Source of the DNA: a virus
Lineage: Duplodnaviria; Heunggongvirae; Uroviricota; Caudoviricetes
IMG/VR virus record: IMGVR_UViG_3300031760_000012
Span: 1 to 33,386 of that record
Strand: one strand, 5' to 3'
DNA length: 33,386 nucleotides
Shown piece after piece: positions 6,725-33,386 of the stretch; the stretch's first letter is position 1, and each line of letters starts with the position of its first letter. A program made the translations under genes and the position numbers. Under the pieces are notes generated by a model. It was not told the DNA's origin, did not search any database, and saw only the letters and a program-made list of their open reading frames with translations.

Positions 6725-7009
6725 AAACAAACTTGTCCCCCACTCTGGCGACAGGGTGGTGCGCATCTGGTGAACTGAGAAATCTCAGGTGTACAGCATA
6801 ACTGTGCTAACGGTGAAGCACTGTTCAACAGTTAATACCGTGCCAAGGCGGACTGGTGACAGACCGCAAGGTGTAACGACTAGGATGTACCTTCTCACCG
6901 AGAAGATGAGATCCGTACTGTGTCGGTGAAACTCCGGCATGGGAAGTGCCAGACATGTCTCAGACATGATGAGATAGTCTATTCCTTATGGTGACATGAG
7001 GTAGTAAAG
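6725..7009 (+). ncRNA. Group I intron (IA-like, ORF-less, 285 nt) in the RNA polymerase catalytic motif
   Basis: 5' exon ends in U and intron ends in G; P1 GAU/GUC with U.G at the splice site; P10 exon-2 AAG/CUU; P2 with GCGA loop; R element GUAACGACUA and S element GAGAUAGUCU forming P7 GACUA (6878-6882)/UAGUC (6975-6979); P9 with GUGA loop; removal is frame-exact. Confidence 0.92.
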
Positions 7010-10282: not shown

Positions 10283-10709
10283 TATAAAGCTTTAAATATA
10301 GTCTTATCTGACATATATAGCAAAATAGTTGCCGTTCTCAGTAATGAGTTCGTAAAAAATCACATTGAATTGCTGGAAACCCGTAAAGCTGATTTTGCCA
10401 CAGTGTAGTTATGAGATACAAACAAGCACGATGGTTACGAAAGTAGAAAAAATAAAATCAGATTGGACAAGGTTAAATCCTAAATCCTATAACAATCGGC
10501 AATCAGCAGCCAAGCCCTGATGAGGGGAAGGTTCAACGACCATCTCGAAAGAGAGTACACGGTAAGCGATTGATCGTGGAAGTGGTGTGCATCCTACACA
10601 GAGGATGAAGATATGGTCTGCACTGCATGGAAACATGTAGGAGCTGCTACCTCCTAGCAGCCGCACGGGAGTAGCGCCCCGAATATAGAACGAAAGGAGG
10701 TGTAATGAC

Positions 10710-25099: not shown

Positions 25100-27241
25100 A
25101 TGAGCGACAAGTTTGACGGTATTATACTCGATTTTAAAGTTGATAAAAAAAGTATAACCGGTATAAGAAAGCAAATAAAAGAAGGACTTGAAAATAAACC
25201 GATCGACCTATCTAGTTTTAATGTGACTACAAAAGGCATCGGGACAATCAAGAGTAGCATCAATAAGGCGCTTGCAAAAGATGCATTAAATATTAATTAT
25301 ATAAATGCTACTGTAGAAGGTGTCAGGAGACTTAAGTCTAGTATTAACGAGAAACTAAAGAAGGATCCTATTAAGATTGGTGCGATTACACCAGACAAGA
25401 TTGACCTTAAAAATGTAATCATAACCAACACAAATACACTACGGAAGCAGGTTGCCGAAGCTATTAGTGCTGGCGGTTATACTCTGAAAATTACAAAAGT
25501 TGACGCGTCTGCGGCAATCAAAGATGTACAGGCGCAACTGAGAGCGGCTCTGCAGGAAGGTGGCTTTGTTGGAAAGAAGACTCCTGTCCAGCAGACTGTT
25601 TCTGATTATAAGGCAATCGCTGAAGCTAAGCAAGCAACTGCTGTAAAACAAGCTCGGACGAAGTATCTGAAGGATATGGAGAAGGAGCTGAATCGCATAT
25701 CTGCGTCAGCAGGCAACAAAGGACTGCTCGGACGGAGTGACGCGATAGCTGCGAAGATCAAGCAGATCGGCGGGCATATCAATTACGTCACAAAGAACAT
25801 GGAAGCGTTCGACTCGATCACCAGAGATGTTGAGAAAGAGATCGGCGAACTAAACGCCATGATCGCCAAAACGAACGTCCCTGCGATCCAGAATCTTGCG
25901 AAGAGCGCTACTAATTCGAATAATCAGATCTCGTCGAAGAGCAACGCGATCACGGATACCGCGACCCTGTCGAAGCTTCAGGGGGCATGGCGCGAGATTC
26001 AGAATCAGATTAAGATCGCGACGGATGAGGTAATCACATTCGGTGAGTCACATGCGTTGAAGAACTCGATCCCTGAGCTGGAGAAGATGGTCACGAAGTA
26101 CAACGAAGTAGTCGCATTGCTCAAAGAGCTGAAAGGTTTCGGGATATCGCCACAGATGAACGACGCGTCAGCAACTCCTCTTGGATTTTTCGACGTAGAC
26201 GCGATGAAGGCTCAGGTCGACGAAGCAAAGAATGTAGCCGAGTCGATGAAAAACATCAACAAGGTTATGGGGACCGCTTCAAAGGTTGGCGGCACAAAGA
26301 GTCTTATCGACAGTGAACAGTACGCGACTATAGAAGCGCATTACGAGAAGATCATCGCGCTGGAAGAAGAGTACAAGGCAGCTGCGTCTCCAGCCGCCAG
26401 AACGAGAATTGCAGAAGCGATTAATAAAGAATGTGCTGCGCTGGAGCGAGAGGTTGTTGCTACGCAGAAACTTGTTGCAGAGCAGAACAGGCTTACCAGA
26501 AGGACAAAGACTGAAGCAGAGAATAGTGCGAAACCGGCTGATCCTGTAGCTATGCGTAATCTGGCTGGACAGATGCAGGGTTGGCTGAATGCGAACAGTC
26601 AGGCAGGTGCTGATAGTAGGACGAGCGGATATTACAAGACTGTTGAGACTGAATTCAATAGACTGAACAGCGCGATAAAGACCAACTCGGAAATAACCAA
26701 AGGCAAGCTTAAAGAGACTTCTACTGCGTTTAAGCAGGCGAGTCTGTCGGTTAAGCAGTTCGGTGTTTCTGGTCAGACGATGTTTGAGCGGTTCACGAAG
26801 GGTTTCGAGAAATTCGGCGGATGGATGTTGATCACGTCTGTGCTGATGGAAGGCATAACTGTGATTCACACCATGGTTGATAATGTCGTGAATCTGGACT
26901 CCGCAATGACTCAACTCAGAAAAGTCACCGACGAGACAAAAACGACCTATGATCAGTTCTACGATGTGGCGGTACAACGGTCAAAAGAGATCGGCGCCAC
27001 AGTGAGCGAAATGATAAATGCGACTGCTGATTTCGCAAGGCTTGGATATAGCATCTCAGATGCTGAAGGTCTGGCTGAAGTTGCAAACATTTATATGCAT
27101 GTAGGGGACAATATAAGCTCTATTGACGACGCGTCGCAGAGCATTATATCTACGCTCAAAGCGTTTTATAACACTAGTGAAGATGGCATAAATCAAGTTC
27201 AAGCTGCAACACATATAGTTGATAGCTTTAACGAAGTCGGT
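25100..27241 (+). CDS. Tape measure protein, exon 1 (714 codons)
   Basis: Long Ala/Lys-rich helical ORF ending in a TP901-like core (LDSAMTQLRKVT...ATADFARLGYS...IVDSFNEVG). Confidence 0.88.
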
Positions 27242-28870
27242 AAAAATTATTGCCGAGCCGCGTAGTAATACGCGGGCAATAAACGTAACTATATCGGTTA
27301 AAGGCGTGAGGACGTTAAGACCGAGGAAAGATGCAATGATGAATGAAAGGGAATAATATGAGAAAAGAAACAAAGGAAATGTTAGGCAAAAAATATGGAC
27401 ACTTAACAGTGGTTGGTTTTACAAAAGAAAATGGTGAAAAAGGAAGAACTCTTTGCAAATGCATCTGTGATTGCGGAAGAGAAACAACTGCAAATCCGCG
27501 TGATTTAAAAATTGGAAAGAAAAAATCTTGCGGTTGTGAAGAGTATGGAACAGCAAGACCATCTATGAGAAAAGATCTTACAGGTACAAGGATTGGCAGC
27601 TTTGTTGTCACGGAAATGATTTATGGAACTACTATAAATGGAAGAAAAGTGACAAAGTGTAAATGTAGATGCGATTGTGGAAATGAAATTGAGTATTACG
27701 CAAACAATATTACATCCGGCAAAATTCCAACATGTAAAAAGTGCGGGAAAAAGAGAATCAGAAAAAGCAGGAGAAAAGATTTGACCGGGCAGACTTTTGG
27801 TCGATTAACAGTTGTTGAAATGCTTTGGAAGGATGAGACTCGCAGTAAGACCATGTGTAGATGTATTTGTGAGTGTGGCAACGAGTATATTGTTGGTTCT
27901 GATAGACTAACATCTGGAAAGACAACATCATGTGGGTGTGAAAGAAAAGAAAAGAAAATTATAAAATTGAAGGAAGAATATATTGGGCATAAATATAATA
28001 GGCTTACAATCGATGATATCTACTATGACGAGAAAGGAGATATTACGGCCAAATGTATTTGTGATTGTGGTAATACAAAAATTACAAAACTCAGTTATGT
28101 TGTTAGAAACGAAATAAAGTCATGCGGATGTTTGTTATTAGAGCAACCTTCATTGAAAAAAGATTATTCAGGTATAAAAAGTGAATACAATGTAGAAATA
28201 TTAAGACAAGCCGAGTCGAATGGTCCATATAATAATTACTGGGTCTGTAAGTGTGGTTTGTGTGGTAACGAATTTATAGCACTCCCAGCTAATGTTATTA
28301 CAGGGAAAACGAAATCGTGCGGTTGTGTAAAAAGATCTTTTCACGAACAATACATCTACAATTTACTTTCCAACGAAAATATCAAATTTGAAACAGAGTA
28401 TCAGATTCCAGAATGCAGAAATGTAAAACCATTGCCTTTTGATTTTGCTGTGTTTGATAATCATGGCTCTCTATCATTTTTAATAGAGTATGACGGGTAC
28501 CAGCACAATAAACCAGTTGACTTTTTTGGTGGAGAAAGCGGATTTGTTATTAGAAAAAATAATGACAATATAAAAAATGATTATTGTGCAGACAATAATA
28601 TCGACCTTTTAAGAATACCATATAGCATGTCTTTAAATGACATTGAGTTAGTCATAACTAACGAATTGAACAATCATTGCATATCCGTAACGACTGCAGG
28701 ATGTACATGGCAACATGTATGTTGAAGTTACGCCCCTTCGAATAATCGAAGGGTGAATATACAGTCTGACCTACGGCAATAACCTAACTATGAAACCGTA
28801 GAGGTAGCCAGAAATGACTGCCCGCCACATATGTGGTCAGTAGGGATGAATCCCGAAAGTAACAGAATTG
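27242..28870 (+). mobile_element. Group I intron (1629 nt) with homing endonuclease ORF, in the TMP gene
   Basis: Exon ends GGU and intron ends G; P1 UCGGU/GCCGA (27252-27256) with U.G; perfect 9-bp P10 AAAAUUAUU (27243-27251)/exon-2 AAUAAUUUU; P2 with GUAA loop; P3 CGUAACU (27284-27290)/AGUUACG (28726-28732); P7 GACUG (28692-28696)/CAGUC (28762-28766); splicing yields NEVG|NNFAISS. Confidence 0.93.
27358..28725 (+). CDS. Intron-encoded putative homing endonuclease: five Cys4 repeats plus Vsr/DUF559-like (EDxHD-type) nuclease domain
   Basis: Five ~55-60 aa repeats (DLTG..FG.LTV...C.C.CG...SCGC) then EQYI...FETEY...PFDF...IEYDGYQH...NDNIK...LLRIPY; GAAAGGGA RBS before ATG at 27358; AT-rich. 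Confidence 0.8.
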   Translation: MRKETKEMLGKKYGHLTVVGFTKENGEKGRTLCKCICDCGRETTANPRDLKIGKKKSCGCEEYGTARPSMRKDLTGTRIGSFVVTEMIYGTTINGRKVTKCKCRCDCGNEIEYYANNITSGKIPTCKKCGKKRIRKSRRKDLTGQTFGRLTVVEMLWKDETRSKTMCRCICECGNEYIVGSDRLTSGKTTSCGCERKEKKIIKLKEEYIGHKYNRLTIDDIYYDEKGDITAKCICDCGNTKITKLSYVVRNEIKSCGCLLLEQPSLKKDYSGIKSEYNVEILRQAESNGPYNNYWVCKCGLCGNEFIALPANVITGKTKSCGCVKRSFHEQYIYNLLSNENIKFETEYQIPECRNVKPLPFDFAVFDNHGSLSFLIEYDGYQHNKPVDFFGGESGFVIRKNNDNIKNDYCADNNIDLLRIPYSMSLNDIELVITNELNNHCISVTTAGCTWQHVC

Positions 28871-31800
28871 AATAATTTTGCCATCTCATCAGATGGAGTC
28901 GGAGAGGCGTTAAAGAGATCGGCTTCGGCACTTGAGGCCGGAAACAATAGCATGGAGGAAAGTATAGGGTTAATAACCGCTATGAACTCCGTGCTGCAAG
29001 ACCCGGAGAAAGTAGGTACAGTACTTAAGACCGTCTCTATGTATATTAGGAGTTCAAAAGCAGAACTTCAAGAAGCCGGTGAAAGTACAGACGGTCTAGT
29101 TCAGAGTACTGCAAAGCTTCGTGAGCTGATATTAGGTTTGACCAATCAAAAGGTCGACATCATGCAGGATCCGACGACAATAAAATCAACATATCAGGTA
29201 TTTAAAGAGCTGTCAAAAGTATGGGGAGAGATGACCGACGTAAATAAAGCTTCCTTGCTGGAGGCTCTTGGCGGCAAGAGAAACGCAAACGCAACCGCTG
29301 CTCTGATCACGAACTTCAAAACAGCGGAAGAAGCCATGGAGACAGCAACCAATTCTGCTGGCTCAGCAGCCAAAGAAAATGAGCGTCAGATGGATTCCAT
29401 CGAAGGTAAAGTCAGACAGCTCAAAGCGTCGTTCGAGGCATTCTCAAATTCTGTGTTAAGTTCAGGTTTGTTTAAGTCTGTGATCTCTGGTCTTACAACA
29501 TCGATTAATTTAGTGTCAAAACTTGTTGATAGATTTGGAGCGCTCCCTACGACACTCGCTATGGCAACTGCTGCATGGAGAATTTACAACAAAGCAAAAG
29601 ACGCAGCAGAAGCGAAACCATTCGGGCAAAGAATACAGGATATAAAAACAAATACAATTGCAGGTTCTGGTCCATTCACACCAAAGCTTGATAATAAATT
29701 CTTAAAAGTTGGGCTTAGTGAAAACACACTTAAAACATTAACTGAAATCAAAAAAAGTTATATTGATCAAGGGGTTGCCACAGATAAGCTCGTTAGCAAT
29801 ATCAATCGCGCATCAAAGGCCGTTGAGAAATATAAATCCGCAGCTGCTGATGCAATGAACAATAATGATTTTGTCGGTGTAATGGCTAACACTGACGCAA
29901 TGAATGAGCAGCGTGAAAAATTACGAAATTTTTACAAAAATCTTCAGGAGAAAAATCCTGAAATGGCTGCTGAAATGCGCGGCATGTTCGAAGGCGGCAT
30001 GATGGGTAATGGCGATCAATTCGAGAAACCATTAGCTACATGGAAGAAGATTAAAAACACTATAGGCGAAGCTAGACAAAAGATGGTCGGTCTAAACGTC
30101 GCTGAAAAAGCCGCTGCCGCAACAGCTACTGCATTAAATGTGAGTTTCGCGGCAATGAAGGTTGCGGTGAAACAAATTAGCATAGCTCTTTTACAGGCTA
30201 TGGGTGCATTCGCAATCGGCATGGTAATTCAGGATGTCGTAACACTTGTAGATAAAATCGCGAACAGATACAAATACGCCGCAGAGCAGGCAGCTGATGT
30301 TGCGGATAAAACGAGAGAAATCTCAGACGCGAACAAAGAGACAAGAGAAAACGTCGATAGCGTAATTGAACGTTATGAACAGTACGGGAAACTGCAATCA
30401 GACTCTGCCACAAAGAACGCAGAAACAAGAGCTACTCTGATTGGACTTCAGCAAGAACTCAATGACGCTGTTGGCGGGCAGGCTTCTAAAATTGACCTTG
30501 TTAACGGGAAATACGACGATCAGATCAAGAAGCTTAAAGAGCTTCGTATAGAACAAAACAAAACGCAGAAAGAGTCAAACACACAAACTCAAGCTGCTGA
30601 TATAGAATTATCTAAAGCCAACTATAAAATGAATAAGTCGAAAAATTTCGACAATATATTCTTTGGCGATGATAAGTCTGCGACAAGAACGAGGGATATT
30701 CTTTCGGAGTCTGAATATGCGAAGTATTTCTCATTTGCAGGTACGATGATCACACCATTTATTGAGGGAGATGAAATCGAGTCAACGATCGATCAGCTTA
30801 ACGTACTCAATGACATCCTCAAAATGCTCGAAAAGAATGGTGTCGATGCCAGCGACTCAATTTATGCTGGTTTGGCATCTGATGCCGCAAAGCTGAATAG
30901 CGAGCTTGGAGACACAAAGAAAGACGCTCAGGAAACTCTTGATACGATTATCGAGGGTGAAATCCTAAGTAATCCGTATGACGAAGGAAGCCAGAGCCTA
31001 GTTGAGTATAGAGATAATTTAAAGAAAGTTGTCAAAGCGTCTGGTGATGTAAAGAGCGCACTCGACGCAGGTCTCTATACACAGAAAGACATCAATCAAG
31101 CAATCGACGAATTCGTCATGTCAAACTATGCCGATGCGTACAAAGAGCAGATCACACCACTGAAGGAAATCGACGAGATCACCTCTTCCCTCTTTGGCGG
31201 CAAAAAGGGTAAGAGCTTTGTCGCCGGCGGCATGATGGACAATCTGAAGGATCAGGTCGCGAAAGAGCTCAAAGGAAAAGATTTAGAAATCGCGTACTCC
31301 CTGATTCTAGACAAGAGCAAATCGTTTAAAGGAATCAAAGACCTGCGCGAAGCCGTAAATGAAGAGCTCAACTTCCGTGAGACATCTGATTACGTAGCAC
31401 AGCAACTCCGCGAAAGCTTGACCAACATCCTCAACGACGAGAACAACAAAACAGATGTAAAGAATCTGAAGAAGTTGGCTCAGACTACCGGCATCAAAGC
31501 AAGCGACGTCGAAGCACTCGCTGCCAAGAGTGAAGATCTCTCAGACATCCTCGACGAGAATGGCATTAGTGCTGAGTATCTCGCCCATGTCTTACAGAAC
31601 GAGTTTGACTTCAACCAGACCGGAGCAGGCATTGCCTCTATTACAGGCAAGGCTCTCGATCTGAACAAGTCGCTCCACGGCATGGAGGAAGCGCTCGACA
31701 GAGTCGCAGCCGCCAAAGCGAAATACGACGCAGCGATGTCGCAGGGTAACTCCGACGCGGAATTCCGCAACTCGTCCGAGGCGTTCTCGAAAGCGTTCGA

Positions 31801-33386
31801 AGCAGCCAAGATGGGTCGAACCGGTGCTGGTCAGACAGACTTCTGGGCAGGAGCCGAGTACCTCCTCGGAGAAGATCAGCTCGAGGCGATGGGCTACAAC
31901 ACAGACGCCGTCGCGAACAAGATCAAAGAGCTCGCCCCGATGCTGAAGAACGCTGAAACAGCAGGCGCAGGATTCATCCAGAAGCTGCAAAGTATGGCTG
32001 ACGAAAGTGGCAACGTCGTTATTAATGGTGAAAAGGTTGCAACTGTTCTGACAGACGACAACGGCAAAACGACGATAGATGCGCGTGCTGAGAATTTCAA
32101 GAAGATCGCAGACGCGCTCGGCATCAGCGAGGAACTGTTCACGCAGTCACTGAACGCAGCGCGCGAATGGGCGAACGTGACGACATTCAGTACAGAAGAA
32201 GTCTACAACAAGCTCCGCGACACAGGCAACGTTCTTGACAACACAGCCGGCGACTTTAAGAAGTTCACCAGCGCCGAGATCATCGACACGAAGAATCTCG
32301 ACATGTCGAAGGAAGAGCTCCGTCAGTTCAAGCAGGAGCTCAAGAGCACAGGCGGCAACTACATATTCATGGACCTGCAGTCAGGTGCCGACGCCGCGAT
32401 GGAGACGATCAAAGAGCTCGGGTTGGCGAAAGAGAAAGTATTCTCGGACGGATCCGGAACGGGCAACTACACGATCGACACAAAGGGTCTCAATTCTCTT
32501 CTGGCGGCATTAGGATATCAGGAATCCGAAGTCAGAGCAGTCTACGATCAATTTGTCAAAGAAGGCAAGCTGACACAGGACGATCTTTCAGCCGCGATGG
32601 AAGACTACGCGAAGAAGGCTGATAGCAGCACCGGCTACACAAAGAAACTCAAGGACGCGATCGAATCTCTGAAAGGTAAGAAGATCGAACTTGAGATCGA
32701 GGCGAAAGTCAACGGGTCGACGTTAGATCCGAACGATAAGTGGAACATGATGCCAGACACTGAAGCGTATGGCGACTTCCTGCAGAACCAAAAGATTAAC
32801 CCGCACGAGTGGAACGAATCGATGCAGCTTGTCGTCGACGACATCACATCCGGGTCGAAGCGAGCTCAGGATGCGATATCAGCAATGCGTGGTGCGATCG
32901 AGAGTAGCCTTGATTTTGACGGCGGAGATTATTCAGAAGAGTACGCACAGACATGGCGTGACCAGATGGACGTCGCCAGTCAGACAATGGACGCTCTCAG
33001 AAAGCAGGGTCTTAAAGATACAGACCAAGAGATGGCTGAGCAGAAAAAGATCTACAACGATGCGCTCAAAGGAATGCTGGACTACGACAAGAAGTTCTAC
33101 GATCAGCAGAGATCGATGCGCGAAGATGCTGTCTCAGCACTTCAGGAGGATCCGTTCGGCGATGCTGTTACGAATAAAGATCAGATCCTGTCCGACTATC
33201 GGGATATCTACGCAGGCGCGGCACAAATGCGCGAGGAAGCTCTGGCGAAGGGCTATCCGCCAAACTCAGAATTTGTCAGGTCGCTTGAGGCAGAAATGCG
33301 CAAGGCGATCAGCAGTATGGAGAATGCGCGCAGAGATGCGTTCAAAAACAACATAAGTCTCAAAGACTTGCAGGCTGACGTACTTT
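28871..33386 (+). CDS. Tape measure protein, exon 2; open to the window end (>=1505 codons; spliced >=2219 aa)
   Basis: Hand translation shows no stop from 28871 (NNFAISSDGVGEALKRSASAL...QDPEKVGTVLKTVSMYIR...LGGKRNAN) to 33386; missed by the ORF track. Confidence 0.9.

What the first reader, a model, noticed from the sequence alone, without database searches (positions are those of the whole stretch)
27242..28870. Tape-measure intron with a five-repeat Zn-array Vsr/EDxHD-like endonuclease
The intron boundaries are unusually clear (9-bp P10, 7-bp P3). The cargo is not a LAGLIDADG, GIY-YIG or HNH enzyme. It has five tandem Cys4 repeats fused to a Vsr-like nuclease, resembling the EDxHD class typified by I-Bth0305I but with a different, modular DNA-binding array. 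If each repeat reads a subsite, this is a natural repeat-array nuclease. Insertion is in the conserved NEVG|NNFA stretch of the TMP core.
Basis: partly seen in the sequence, partly recalled or inferred. Interest (0 to 1): 0.7.

Follow-up and report, generated by a model that had tools for sequence, protein, structure and literature searches.

The report
Mobile intron in phage tape-measure gene
A self-splicing group I intron interrupts the tail tape-measure gene of a cattle-gut phage and carries a DNA-cutting "homing" enzyme made of five small zinc-binding repeats plus a Vsr-type nuclease; it is real and cleanly delimited, but this enzyme design was already described in print in 2025, so it is a new member of a known family.

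Summary
Bases 27242-28870 are a group I intron in the tape-measure gene. Removing them joins NEVG|NNFA in frame, and an uninterrupted homolog (phage Sundance) aligns across the junction without a gap. P1, the 9-bp P10, the 7-bp P3, P4-P9 and the terminal G are all present. P3 and P7 co-vary across related introns from viral contigs, although Rfam's group I model misses this whole intron class.

Merk, Jones and Eddy (NAR 2025) described "3-5 CapR-like domains plus an EDxHD/Vsr-like domain" as a large homing-endonuclease group, and our nuclease is 40% identical to that of AR9 gp146. Barth et al. (2023) had already proposed bead-on-string zinc-finger arrays in phage homing endonucleases.

The same tape-measure site in other phages holds introns with 3-, 4- or 5-repeat enzymes, enzyme remnants or no ORF: a textbook homing cycle. 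No enzyme of this family has been tested biochemically.

The parts
25100..27241 (+). Tape-measure protein exon 1 (714 codons), ending ...FNEVG
   Evidence: ORF list. PHROG 4211 tape measure, E 3.5e-28. Aligns with the Sundance tape-measure protein up to the junction.
27242..28870 (+). Group I intron, 1629 nt, IA-like (one P7.1 hairpin between P7 and P3'); ends in G28870
   Evidence: Helices located. Covariation in related introns. In-frame, gapless exon junction.
27237..27256 (+). P1: exon UCGGU (27237-27241) pairs with the internal guide GCCGA (27252-27256), with U27241-G27252 at the splice site. The guide bases 27243-27251 (AAAAUUAUU) form the 9-bp P10 with exon 2 bases 28871-28879.
   Evidence: Read from the sequence.
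27258..27275 (+). P2 hairpin (CCGCG / CGCGG)
27284..27290 (+). P3 5' strand CGUAACU; pairs with 28726-28732
   Evidence: 7 bp. In relatives, 22 co-varying versions with 150/154 positions paired.
27294..27324 (+). P4 (27294-27298 / 27320-27324) enclosing P5 (27303-27307 / 27312-27316)
   Evidence: P5 forms a 5-bp hairpin in 42 different sequences.
27332..27338 (+). P6 5' strand UGCAAUG; pairs with 28675-28681, so the ORF lies in the P6 loop
   Evidence: ORF-less relatives have a short P6 hairpin at the same place.
27343..28725 (+). Homing endonuclease ORF, 460 aa. The likely true start is ATG 27358, behind the Shine-Dalgarno-like AAAGGGA at 27346-27352. The stop UGA (28723-28725) is the joiner between P7.1 and P3'.
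   Evidence: PHROG 374/559/9084/7140. More than 6000 homologs.
27370..27540 (+). Zinc repeat 1 (aa 10-66)
   Evidence: own repeat HMM, E 1.3e-19
27565..27744 (+). Zinc repeat 2 (aa 75-134; second Cys pair is CKKC instead of CGC)
   Evidence: E 8.9e-19
27769..27942 (+). Zinc repeat 3 (aa 143-200)
   Evidence: E 2.4e-27
27970..28134 (+). Zinc repeat 4 (aa 210-264)
   Evidence: E 1.4e-17
28156..28326 (+). Zinc repeat 5 (aa 272-328)
   Evidence: E 3.2e-19
28333..28683 (+). Vsr-like (EDxHD-type) nuclease domain, aa 331-447; E335, D367, E382, D384, Q387, H388, D408, K411
28675..28732 (+). Intron core that overlaps the ORF's 3' end: P6' (28675-28681), J6/7, P7 5' strand GACUG (28692-28696), P7.1 hairpin (28701-28709 / 28714-28722, GCAA loop), then P3' AGUUACG (28726-28732)
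   Evidence: Homologs in sister introns share the C-terminal tail ..VTTAGCTWQHVC, which is dictated by this RNA.
28734..28766 (+). P8 hairpin (28734-28741 / 28746-28753), J8/7 UGAAUAUA (28754-28761), P7 3' strand CAGUC (28762-28766)
   Evidence: P8 forms in 47 different sequences. P7 covaries G-C / A-U.
28767..28870 (+). 3' peripheral hairpins (tentatively P9.0, P9, P9.1, P9.2) and the conserved ..GUAACAGAAUUG end
   Evidence: helix names are tentative.
28871..33385 (+). Tape-measure exon 2 (runs off the window), starting NNFAISSDGVGEALKR
   Evidence: Pfam PhageMin_Tail. PHROG 4211, E 4.6e-48. 44% identity to Sundance from the first residue.

Best explanation
This is a mobile group I intron in a phage tape-measure gene.

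Shown here:
- The 1629-nt insert has the full group I helix set: P1 with a U-G pair, P10, P2, the P3/P7 pseudoknot, P4-P6, P7.1, P8, peripheral P9 hairpins and a terminal G.
- Removing it restores an uninterrupted tape-measure frame.
- Its P6 loop encodes an intact protein of five CapR-like zinc modules followed by a Vsr-fold nuclease with all conserved active-site residues.

Inferred:
- After transcription the RNA splices itself, so the phage still makes a full-length tape-measure protein.
- The protein is translated from its own ribosome-binding site inside the intron.
- When this phage co-infects a cell with a relative that lacks the intron, the zinc-module array binds an extended, asymmetric stretch of the NEVG|NNFA coding region.
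- The Vsr-like domain, probably acting as a dimer as I-Bth0305I does, cuts at or next to the insertion point.
- Recombinational repair from the intron-bearing genome then copies the intron and flanking markers into the cut allele.

The enzyme belongs to the 'CapR-like x 3-5 plus EDxHD/Vsr-like' group of homing endonucleases described in 2025.
For: - **Junction and frame:**
- **RNA helices with coordinates:**
- **Covariation:** P3 is paired at 150/154 positions over 22 versions, against 111 +/- 4 when shuffled. The variable P7 pair switches G-C/A-U 31:22 with no mismatch. There are 40-47 different P5, P7.1 and P8 hairpins. The ORF-deleted intron aligns seamlessly with ORF-less relatives.
- **Repeats:** five units. 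hhalign against ICP1 CapR repeats gives Prob 88%, E 3.4e-6 over 53 columns, with controls at 0.007-0.5. Sister-intron enzymes with the same nuclease hit Pfam CapR and DUF4379 directly. CapR binds DNA and needs its four Cys (PMC8096241).
- **Homing cycle at the same tape-measure site:** intact 3-, 4- and 5-repeat enzymes, 60-77-aa in-frame remnants, ORF-less introns and empty sites.
- **Published description of the architecture:** PMC12350094.
Against: - Rfam RF00028 does not hit this intron, whole or in halves, nor its ORF-less relatives. The group I assignment therefore rests on my own helix mapping and covariation counts.
- No splicing, DNA binding or cleavage has been measured for this protein or any member of its group.
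- Pfam's CapR model does not hit the repeats.
- Sequence similarity to I-Bth0305I itself is weak (hhalign E 0.008; BLASTP finds nothing).
- The target shows no pseudo-palindrome like that of I-Bth0305I: 5 of 7 symmetric pairs, a value reached by 54% of shuffles.
- Zinc binding is inferred from conserved Cys only.
Confidence: 0.85

Rival explanations
1. The array is not a set of independent subsite readers. Most specificity would come from contacts around the cleavage site, as in I-Bth0305I. The zinc modules would act mainly as low-specificity DNA clamps, spacers or distance rulers, as reported for the I-TevI zinc finger (from general knowledge of that enzyme).
For: Enzymes with 3, 4 and 5 repeats sit in the same intron class at the same homologous tape-measure site (L056, L078, L111 and the window), so repeat number is not fixed by the target. 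The 3-repeat homologs align to repeats 3-5 of this protein, so repeats 1-2 look like dispensable N-terminal additions. I-Bth0305I has its highest specificity at the centre of its site.
Against: CapR, a single module of this superfamily, binds one specific promoter segment, and this needs its Cys residues. The repeats are only 28-43% identical to each other, as expected if they have diverged to read different sequences. The exon sequences of these phages differ, so different arrays may simply read different flanks.
Confidence: 0.4
2. The endonuclease no longer homes. It would be a decaying passenger, or it has been kept for another role such as helping the intron fold or regulating genes.
For: The same intron class shows many degraded or lost ORFs. 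CapR itself is a domesticated module used as a repressor. Only one near-identical copy of this element was found in IMG/VR, so there is no direct sign of recent spread.
Against: The ORF is full length. It keeps every invariant residue of the family: E335, D367, E382, G385, Q387, H388, D408 and K411. It has a ribosome-binding site.
Confidence: 0.15
3. It is not an intron. The tape-measure function would be split into two separate genes with a free-standing nuclease gene between them.
For: Rfam finds no group I intron here. A TTG at 28868 could start the downstream ORF. Free-standing members of the enzyme family exist, for example next to bnrdF in Bacillus phage LY2.
Against: The break falls inside the most conserved tape-measure motif, with a gapless in-frame join. 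The flanks fold into a co-varying group I core shared with ORF-less 250-nt elements at the same site. The TTG is part of the conserved intron end ..ACAGAAUUG.
Confidence: 0.03

Closest known systems
[quoted passage not shown] Bacillus phage AR9 gp146)
   Same: The architecture is the same: several ~60-aa CapR/DUF4379/DUF723-like modules followed by a ~100-aa Vsr-like domain. It is intron-encoded in an essential phage gene. The nuclease domain is 40% identical to AR9 gp146 (E 6e-18).
   Different: The zinc unit here is the CxCxCxCG...SCGC flavour, which no Pfam model hits. AR9 gp146 uses an H/C...CPxC flavour. The host gene is the tape-measure gene, not the virion RNA polymerase. There are five repeats, the top of the published range.
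I-Bth0305I, prototype EDxHD homing endonuclease (recA intron of Bacillus phage 0305phi8-36; PDB 3R3P)
   Different: Its DNA-binding part is two NUMOD/helix-turn-helix motifs, not zinc repeats. Its ORF sits in P5, not P6. Sequence similarity is marginal. Its target has a pseudo-palindromic centre, which was not seen here.
T5orf172 homing endonucleases of Vibrio phage ICP1 with repeated CapR/DUF723/DUF4379 zinc fingers (Netter 2021, PMC8096241; Barth 2023, PMC10448857)
   Same: They also have N-terminal tandem arrays of CapR-superfamily zinc modules, with four Pfam CapR hits per ICP1 protein. The 'beads on a string' model of target recognition has already been proposed for them.
   Different: Their nuclease is the GIY-YIG-related T5orf172 domain, not a Vsr-like one. 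Those genes are free-standing, not intron-borne.
Tape-measure introns of Thomasclavelia phage TR-TP1 (PQ571309)
   Same: They belong to the same intron class (the 3' core is 75% identical, with compensatory changes in P3, P5, P7.1 and P8). They lie in a tape-measure gene and carry the same nuclease domain.
   Different: They are inserted at two other positions of the gene. gp30 has NUMOD4 plus one CapR hit, not the five-repeat array. The genes are annotated as 'HNH endonuclease'.

Membership tests
Group I intron | P1 with a U-G pair at the 5' splice site, P10 with the 3' exon, and G as the last intron base | tested here: met
   U27241-G27252; P1 is 5 bp; P10 is 9 bp; G28870.
Group I intron | Core topology P3-P4-P5-P6-P7-P3'-P8-P7' (the P3/P7 pseudoknot), supported by covariation | tested here: met
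   P3 is paired at 150/154 positions over 22 versions, against 111 +/- 4 when shuffled. The P7 pair switches G-C/A-U 31:22 with no mismatch. P5, P7.1 and P8 form in 40-47 different sequences.
Group I intron | Match to the curated covariance model Rfam RF00028 | tested here: not met
   There is no hit for the intron, its two halves or its ORF-less relatives, even at E up to 1-10. The same model does find four other introns in this genome. I read this as a gap in the model's coverage, not as evidence against the fold.
Group I intron | Self-splicing with guanosine in vitro | not testable with these tools
   Needs transcription and splicing assays.
EDxHD / Vsr-like homing endonucleases (I-Bth0305I type) | Vsr-like PD-(D/E)xK fold of the catalytic domain | tested here: met
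EDxHD / Vsr-like homing endonucleases (I-Bth0305I type) | Conserved E, D, x, H, D active-site positions | tested here: met
   E335, D367, D384, H388 and D408 are invariant or nearly so in 55 homologs. The E, D, x and last D are placed on E170, D196, N208 and D222 by hhalign. H388/H213 is placed by reading DGYQH against NGVYWH.
EDxHD / Vsr-like homing endonucleases (I-Bth0305I type) | N-terminal NUMOD / helix-turn-helix DNA-binding region | tested here: not met
   No NUMOD or HTH family hit. Five zinc repeats are found in its place.
EDxHD / Vsr-like homing endonucleases (I-Bth0305I type) | Double-strand cleavage next to the intron insertion site of the intron-less allele | not testable with these tools
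   Biochemical assay needed.
CapR-like x n plus EDxHD/Vsr-like homing endonucleases (Merk et al. 2025) | Three to five ~60-aa domains distantly related to CapR/DUF4379/DUF723 | tested here: met
   Five ~57-60-aa units with a 64-68-aa period. hhalign to ICP1 CapR repeats gives E 3.4e-6, Prob 88%.
CapR-like x n plus EDxHD/Vsr-like homing endonucleases (Merk et al. 2025) | C-terminal ~100-aa EDxHD/Vsr-like domain homologous to those of the AR9/PBS1 intron enzymes | tested here: met
   AR9 gp146: E 6e-18, 40% identity over aa 318-456.
CapR homology domain (Pfam PF21817) | Match to the Pfam model at its curated cut-off | tested here: not met
   No hit at E up to 1 on the protein or at E up to 10 on the genome. 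The relation is seen only by profile-profile comparison.
CapR homology domain (Pfam PF21817) | Two conserved Cys pairs (CxxC ... CxC) needed for DNA binding | tested here: inconclusive
   Each repeat keeps a CxC or CxxC pair and a CxC pair 18-21 residues later. Zinc and DNA binding were not tested.
HNH endonuclease (the label PHROG and GenBank give to relatives) | HNH/His-Me catalytic motif | tested here: not met
   No HNH Pfam family hit. The catalytic domain has a Vsr-like fold. The label comes from other proteins that share only the zinc repeats.

The most novel reading that the evidence does not exclude
The CxCxCxCG...SCGC unit would be a distinct DNA-reading module in which each repeat recognises its own short block of bases. 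Arrays of 3 to 10 units would then be natural, evolvable, bead-on-string recognition arrays that could be re-ordered to retarget a Vsr-type nuclease.
Probability: 0.15. Interest if true: 0.7.

Novelty: new member of a known kind. Interest (0 to 1): 0.3.

Why it matters
- **Annotation:** gene callers split this tape-measure gene into two ORFs and label relatives of the enzyme 'HNH endonuclease'. Rfam's group I model misses this whole intron class, which I found in 104 viral contigs.
- **Biology:** the tape-measure NEVG|NNFA site shows every stage of the homing cycle, with 3-, 4- and 5-repeat enzymes at one homologous target. That makes it a convenient natural series for asking how a zinc-module array contributes to target choice.
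- **Scale:** the enzyme group has thousands of members and no biochemistry at all, so any member that cuts in vitro would be the first characterised one.
- **Limit:** none of this is a new principle.

Tried and rejected
- **Rfam RF00028.** I searched the whole window, the region alone, each half alone in truncation mode, and ORF-less relatives at the gathering and E-value thresholds. Nothing matched. I relied on hand mapping and covariation counts.
- **MAFFT alignment A3 of ORF-less relatives.** It put P3' and P8 out of register, so I did not use the count of structure pairs. I counted pairs from sequence anchors in a script. The first anchor script was faulty and was replaced.
- **Sequence searches of PDB.** The protein and its profile gave no hit.
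- **Foldseek with the whole 460-aa model.** It gave only noise plus TnsA. Only the domain model was informative.
- **Global hhalign to I-Bth0305I.** It failed. Local mode gave a full-length but weak alignment.
- **Pseudo-palindrome at the target.** Not significant.
- **Close intron-less relatives of this tape-measure gene in IMG/VR.** Only a near-identical contig turned up.
- **NCBIfam.** Nothing useful.
Full report
**Setting**

The window is the first 33 kb of a 117,455-bp IMG/VR virus record. Earlier notes of this scan call it a cattle-gut phage. Rfam finds four other group I introns in the genome, at 10313-10640 and 6731-7001 of the window and two beyond it. None is found at the place in question.

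**The split gene**

A 721-codon ORF (25100-27265) and a long ORF from 28868 to the window's end are both tape-measure protein (PHROG 4211, E 3.5e-28 and 4.6e-48; Pfam PhageMin_Tail).

- They lie in the same frame.
- Deleting 27242-28870 gives 2219 codons with no stop, reading ...IVDSFNEVG|NNFAISSDGVGEALKR.
- The uninterrupted tape-measure gene of Brevibacillus phage Sundance matches exon 1 up to its base 32306 and exon 2 from base 32307. The protein alignment crosses the junction without a gap: IVDMFNEVGNNFAVSSEGIGEALKR.

**The RNA**

Rfam does not recognise the insert, whether whole, as a region, or as two halves in truncation mode. By reading the sequence I could place a complete group I helix set (coordinates):

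| Element | Position |
|---|---|
| P1 | UCGGU 27237-27241 with GCCGA 27252-27256 (U-G at the splice site) |
| P10 | 9 bp, 27243-27251 with 28871-28879 |
| P2 | 27258-27275 |
| P3 | 7 bp, 27284-27290 with 28726-28732 |
| P4 / P5 | 27294-27324 |
| P6 | 27332-27338 with 28675-28681 |
| P7 | 28692-28696 with 28762-28766 |
| P7.1 | 9-bp hairpin with a GCAA loop, 28701-28722 |
| P8 | 28734-28753 |
| J8/7 | UGAAUAUA |
| 3' end | several 3' hairpins and the final G28870 |

The single extra hairpin between P7 and P3' is the hallmark of subgroup IA (my knowledge of the Michel-Westhof classes; the subgroup call is an inference).

**Comparative support for the fold**

A search of viral contigs for the P3-J3/4-P4...P4' signature found 104 contigs.

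- They hold three forms: ORF-less elements of about 250-270 nt, elements with 1.0-1.6 kb of coding insert in P6, and intermediate forms.
- Our intron with its ORF removed aligns seamlessly with the ORF-less ones.
- Among the distinct cores, P3 occurs in 22 different strand pairs with 150 of 154 positions paired. With partners shuffled this falls to 111 +/- 4, maximum 125.
- The one variable P7 pair is G-C in 31 cores and A-U in 22, never mismatched.
- P5, P7.1 and P8 form hairpins in 42, 40 and 47 different sequences.
- The TR-TP1 intron alone shows three double compensatory changes in P3.
- Even the ORF-less members are missed by RF00028, at the gathering threshold and at E up to 1. The model lacks this class. 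I do not take the miss as evidence against a group I fold.

**The ORF**

ORF 27343-28725 (460 aa) lies in the P6 loop. ATG 27358 is the likelier start, because AAAGGGA lies 5-6 nt upstream of it.

- The last 17 codons overlap P6', J6/7, P7 and P7.1, and the UGA stop is the joiner before P3'.
- This explains why homologs only 45% identical share the tail ..SVTTAGCTWQHVC. The tail marks them as cargo of the same intron class.
- No Pfam family passes its cut-off. DUF5889 and DUF2726 match weakly on aa 366-431.
- PHROGs call relatives 'HNH endonuclease', 'homing endonuclease' or 'intron encoded nuclease'.
- More than 6000 database proteins match at E below 1e-5.

**The nuclease domain**

An AlphaFold2 model of aa 322-460 built on 55 homologs has pLDDT 90 and pTM 0.83.

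- Foldseek gives its highest probability (0.98) to 3r3p, the I-Bth0305I catalytic domain.
- A search of 48,161 representative chains that does not depend on Foldseek gave the same order.
- The family-invariant residues are D367, E382, G385, Q387, H388, D408 and K411, and E335 is nearly invariant.
- hhalign places E335, D367, D384 and D408 on E170, D196, N208 and D222 of I-Bth0305I. DGYQH reads against NGVYWH. These are the EDxHD positions defined in PMC3239194.
- Plain sequence similarity to I-Bth0305I is negligible.

**The repeats**

Five units were found: aa 10-66, 75-134, 143-200, 210-264 and 272-328.

- Their motif is G-x-L-T-V ... C-x-C-x-C-x-C-G-N ... L-x-x-G-x-x-x-S-C-G-C.
- They are 28-43% identical to one another, so they are old duplications.
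- In the full-length model (pLDDT 89.7) each unit has three strands and a short helix. The second Cys pair sits just before a helix, as in treble-clef fingers (the treble-clef reading is an inference).
- The language-model and structure atlas placed the unit next to clusters carrying CapR, AP2, HNH, NUMOD1, LacI and integrase domains.
- I tested the CapR lead directly. Pfam's CapR model finds four tandem copies in each of several ICP1 nuclease genes.
- A profile of 494 repeats from our family aligns to the Cys-bearing ICP1 repeats over 53 columns with Prob 88% and E 3.4e-6. A reversed control gave E 0.007 and eight column-shuffled controls gave 0.04-0.5.
- Enzymes in sister introns that share our nuclease hit Pfam CapR and DUF4379 outright.
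- CapR binds a specific promoter segment, and this needs its four Cys (PMC8096241).

The repeats are therefore best read as divergent CapR-superfamily DNA-binding zinc modules. Zinc and DNA binding by this protein are inferred, not shown.

**Repeat number and targets**

| Repeats | Proteins among the 120 best homologs |
|---|---|
| 3 | 53 |
| 4 | 42 |
| 5 | 11 |
| 6-10 | 14 |

- 115 of the 120 carry the nuclease motif, and four are repeat-only proteins.
- At the homologous tape-measure site (N-E/K/I-V/L-G/S/D | N-N/E/S/T-F/Y/E-A/S), the same intron class appears in other phages in several states:
  - with 3-repeat enzymes (L056, L078) or a 4-repeat enzyme (L111);
  - with an unrelated 470-aa ORF (L066);
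  - with 60-77-aa in-frame deletion remnants of the L056-type enzyme (L013 and others);
  - with a further-shortened form (L084);
  - with no ORF (L016, L022, L047, L048, L101).
- Sundance shows the empty site.
- This is the classical cycle of invasion, decay and loss. It also shows that repeat number is not dictated by the target.
- Cultured phages carry members in a split terminase gene (S. epidermidis phage BE24), next to bnrdF (Bacillus phage LY2), and in the TR-TP1 tape-measure gene, where they are labelled 'HNH endonuclease'.

**What is already known**

- A word search of this scan's earlier notes pointed to PMC12350094. I read it. [quoted passage not shown] - I checked membership directly. 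AR9 gp146 lies in the virion RNA polymerase gene that the paper shows, and was annotated in the AR9 record as 'group I intron VSR'. It matches our nuclease domain at E 6e-18 and 40% identity. It has three zinc modules of another flavour.
- Barth et al. 2023 (PMC10448857) had already described repeated CapR/DUF723/DUF4379 zinc fingers in T5orf172 homing endonucleases as 'beads on a string' whose combined action gives target specificity.

The architecture and the repeat-array idea are therefore both in print. Particular to this case are the zinc-unit flavour that no Pfam model hits, the five-unit array, the tape-measure target and an intron class that Rfam misses.

**Mechanism and verdict**

- Shown: the intron's anatomy, the restored frame, the intact enzyme with a Vsr-like fold, and the homing-cycle pattern across phages.
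- Inferred: self-splicing, translation from the internal ribosome-binding site, binding of an extended asymmetric site by the array, cleavage near the junction (probably as a dimer, by analogy with I-Bth0305I), and spread by recombinational repair during co-infection.
- The target has no significant pseudo-palindrome, so the mode of double-strand cutting is open.

This is a clean, correct finding and a new member of a known, recently described kind. It is of moderate interest, mainly as an untested enzyme family and as an annotation gap.

Noticed in passing
L016, L019, L038, L047, L048 and about 100 further viral-contig loci: A whole class of phage group I introns (signature ACUAUAUCGGU..AAGACCGAG, a P7.1 hairpin with a GNRA loop, end ..GUAACAGNNUG) is not detected by Rfam RF00028, even in its ORF-less ~250-nt form, at E up to 1. 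A dedicated covariance model would recover many unannotated split phage genes.
   Followed up: partly
L013, L015, L021, L073, L085 (265-nt P6 insert) and L084 (154 nt): These are in-frame deletion remnants (60-77 aa) of the L056-type 3-repeat enzyme. They keep only its first ~20 and last ~40 residues, the part that overlaps the intron core. They are snapshots of endonuclease decay at the same tape-measure site.
   Followed up: partly
L002 (Thomasclavelia phage TR-TP1, PQ571309, 23364-31193): The tape-measure gene is annotated as three separate CDS with two 'HNH endonuclease' genes between them. These are two introns of this class carrying Vsr-like, not HNH, nucleases. gp30 has NUMOD4 plus one CapR hit.
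   Followed up: partly
own genome G000:C1:87267-87479 (-), next to the Rfam group I intron at 87503-87807 (-): One copy of the same zinc repeat (50% identical to aa 138-205) lies in a 327-aa frame that contains one in-frame TGA, beside another group I intron. It may be a second, perhaps broken, endonuclease with this module.
   Followed up: no
window 10313-10640 and 6731-7001: Two further group I introns lie in the same window (Rfam 84.9 bits, and 41 bits below the cut-off). Earlier notes of this scan describe them as a TnpB-carrying intron and an ORF-less intron in the phage RNA polymerase gene.
   Followed up: no
L118, L119, L123 (Vibrio phage ICP1, NC_015157): The four Pfam CapR hits in each ICP1 T5orf172 gene alternate between a Cys-bearing type (CxxC...CxC) and a type that mostly lacks these Cys, so the arrays are hetero-repeats.
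   Followed up: no
P0010, P0014, P0030, P0039 (e.g. Selenomonas ruminantium SELR_12480): These proteins have nine copies of the same zinc repeat and no nuclease domain. They may be domesticated DNA-binding arrays.
   Followed up: no
L128 (S. epidermidis phage vB_SepM_BE24, OQ355702, 21992-25446): The large terminase gene is annotated in three pieces. A member of this endonuclease family lies between the second and third piece.
   Followed up: no
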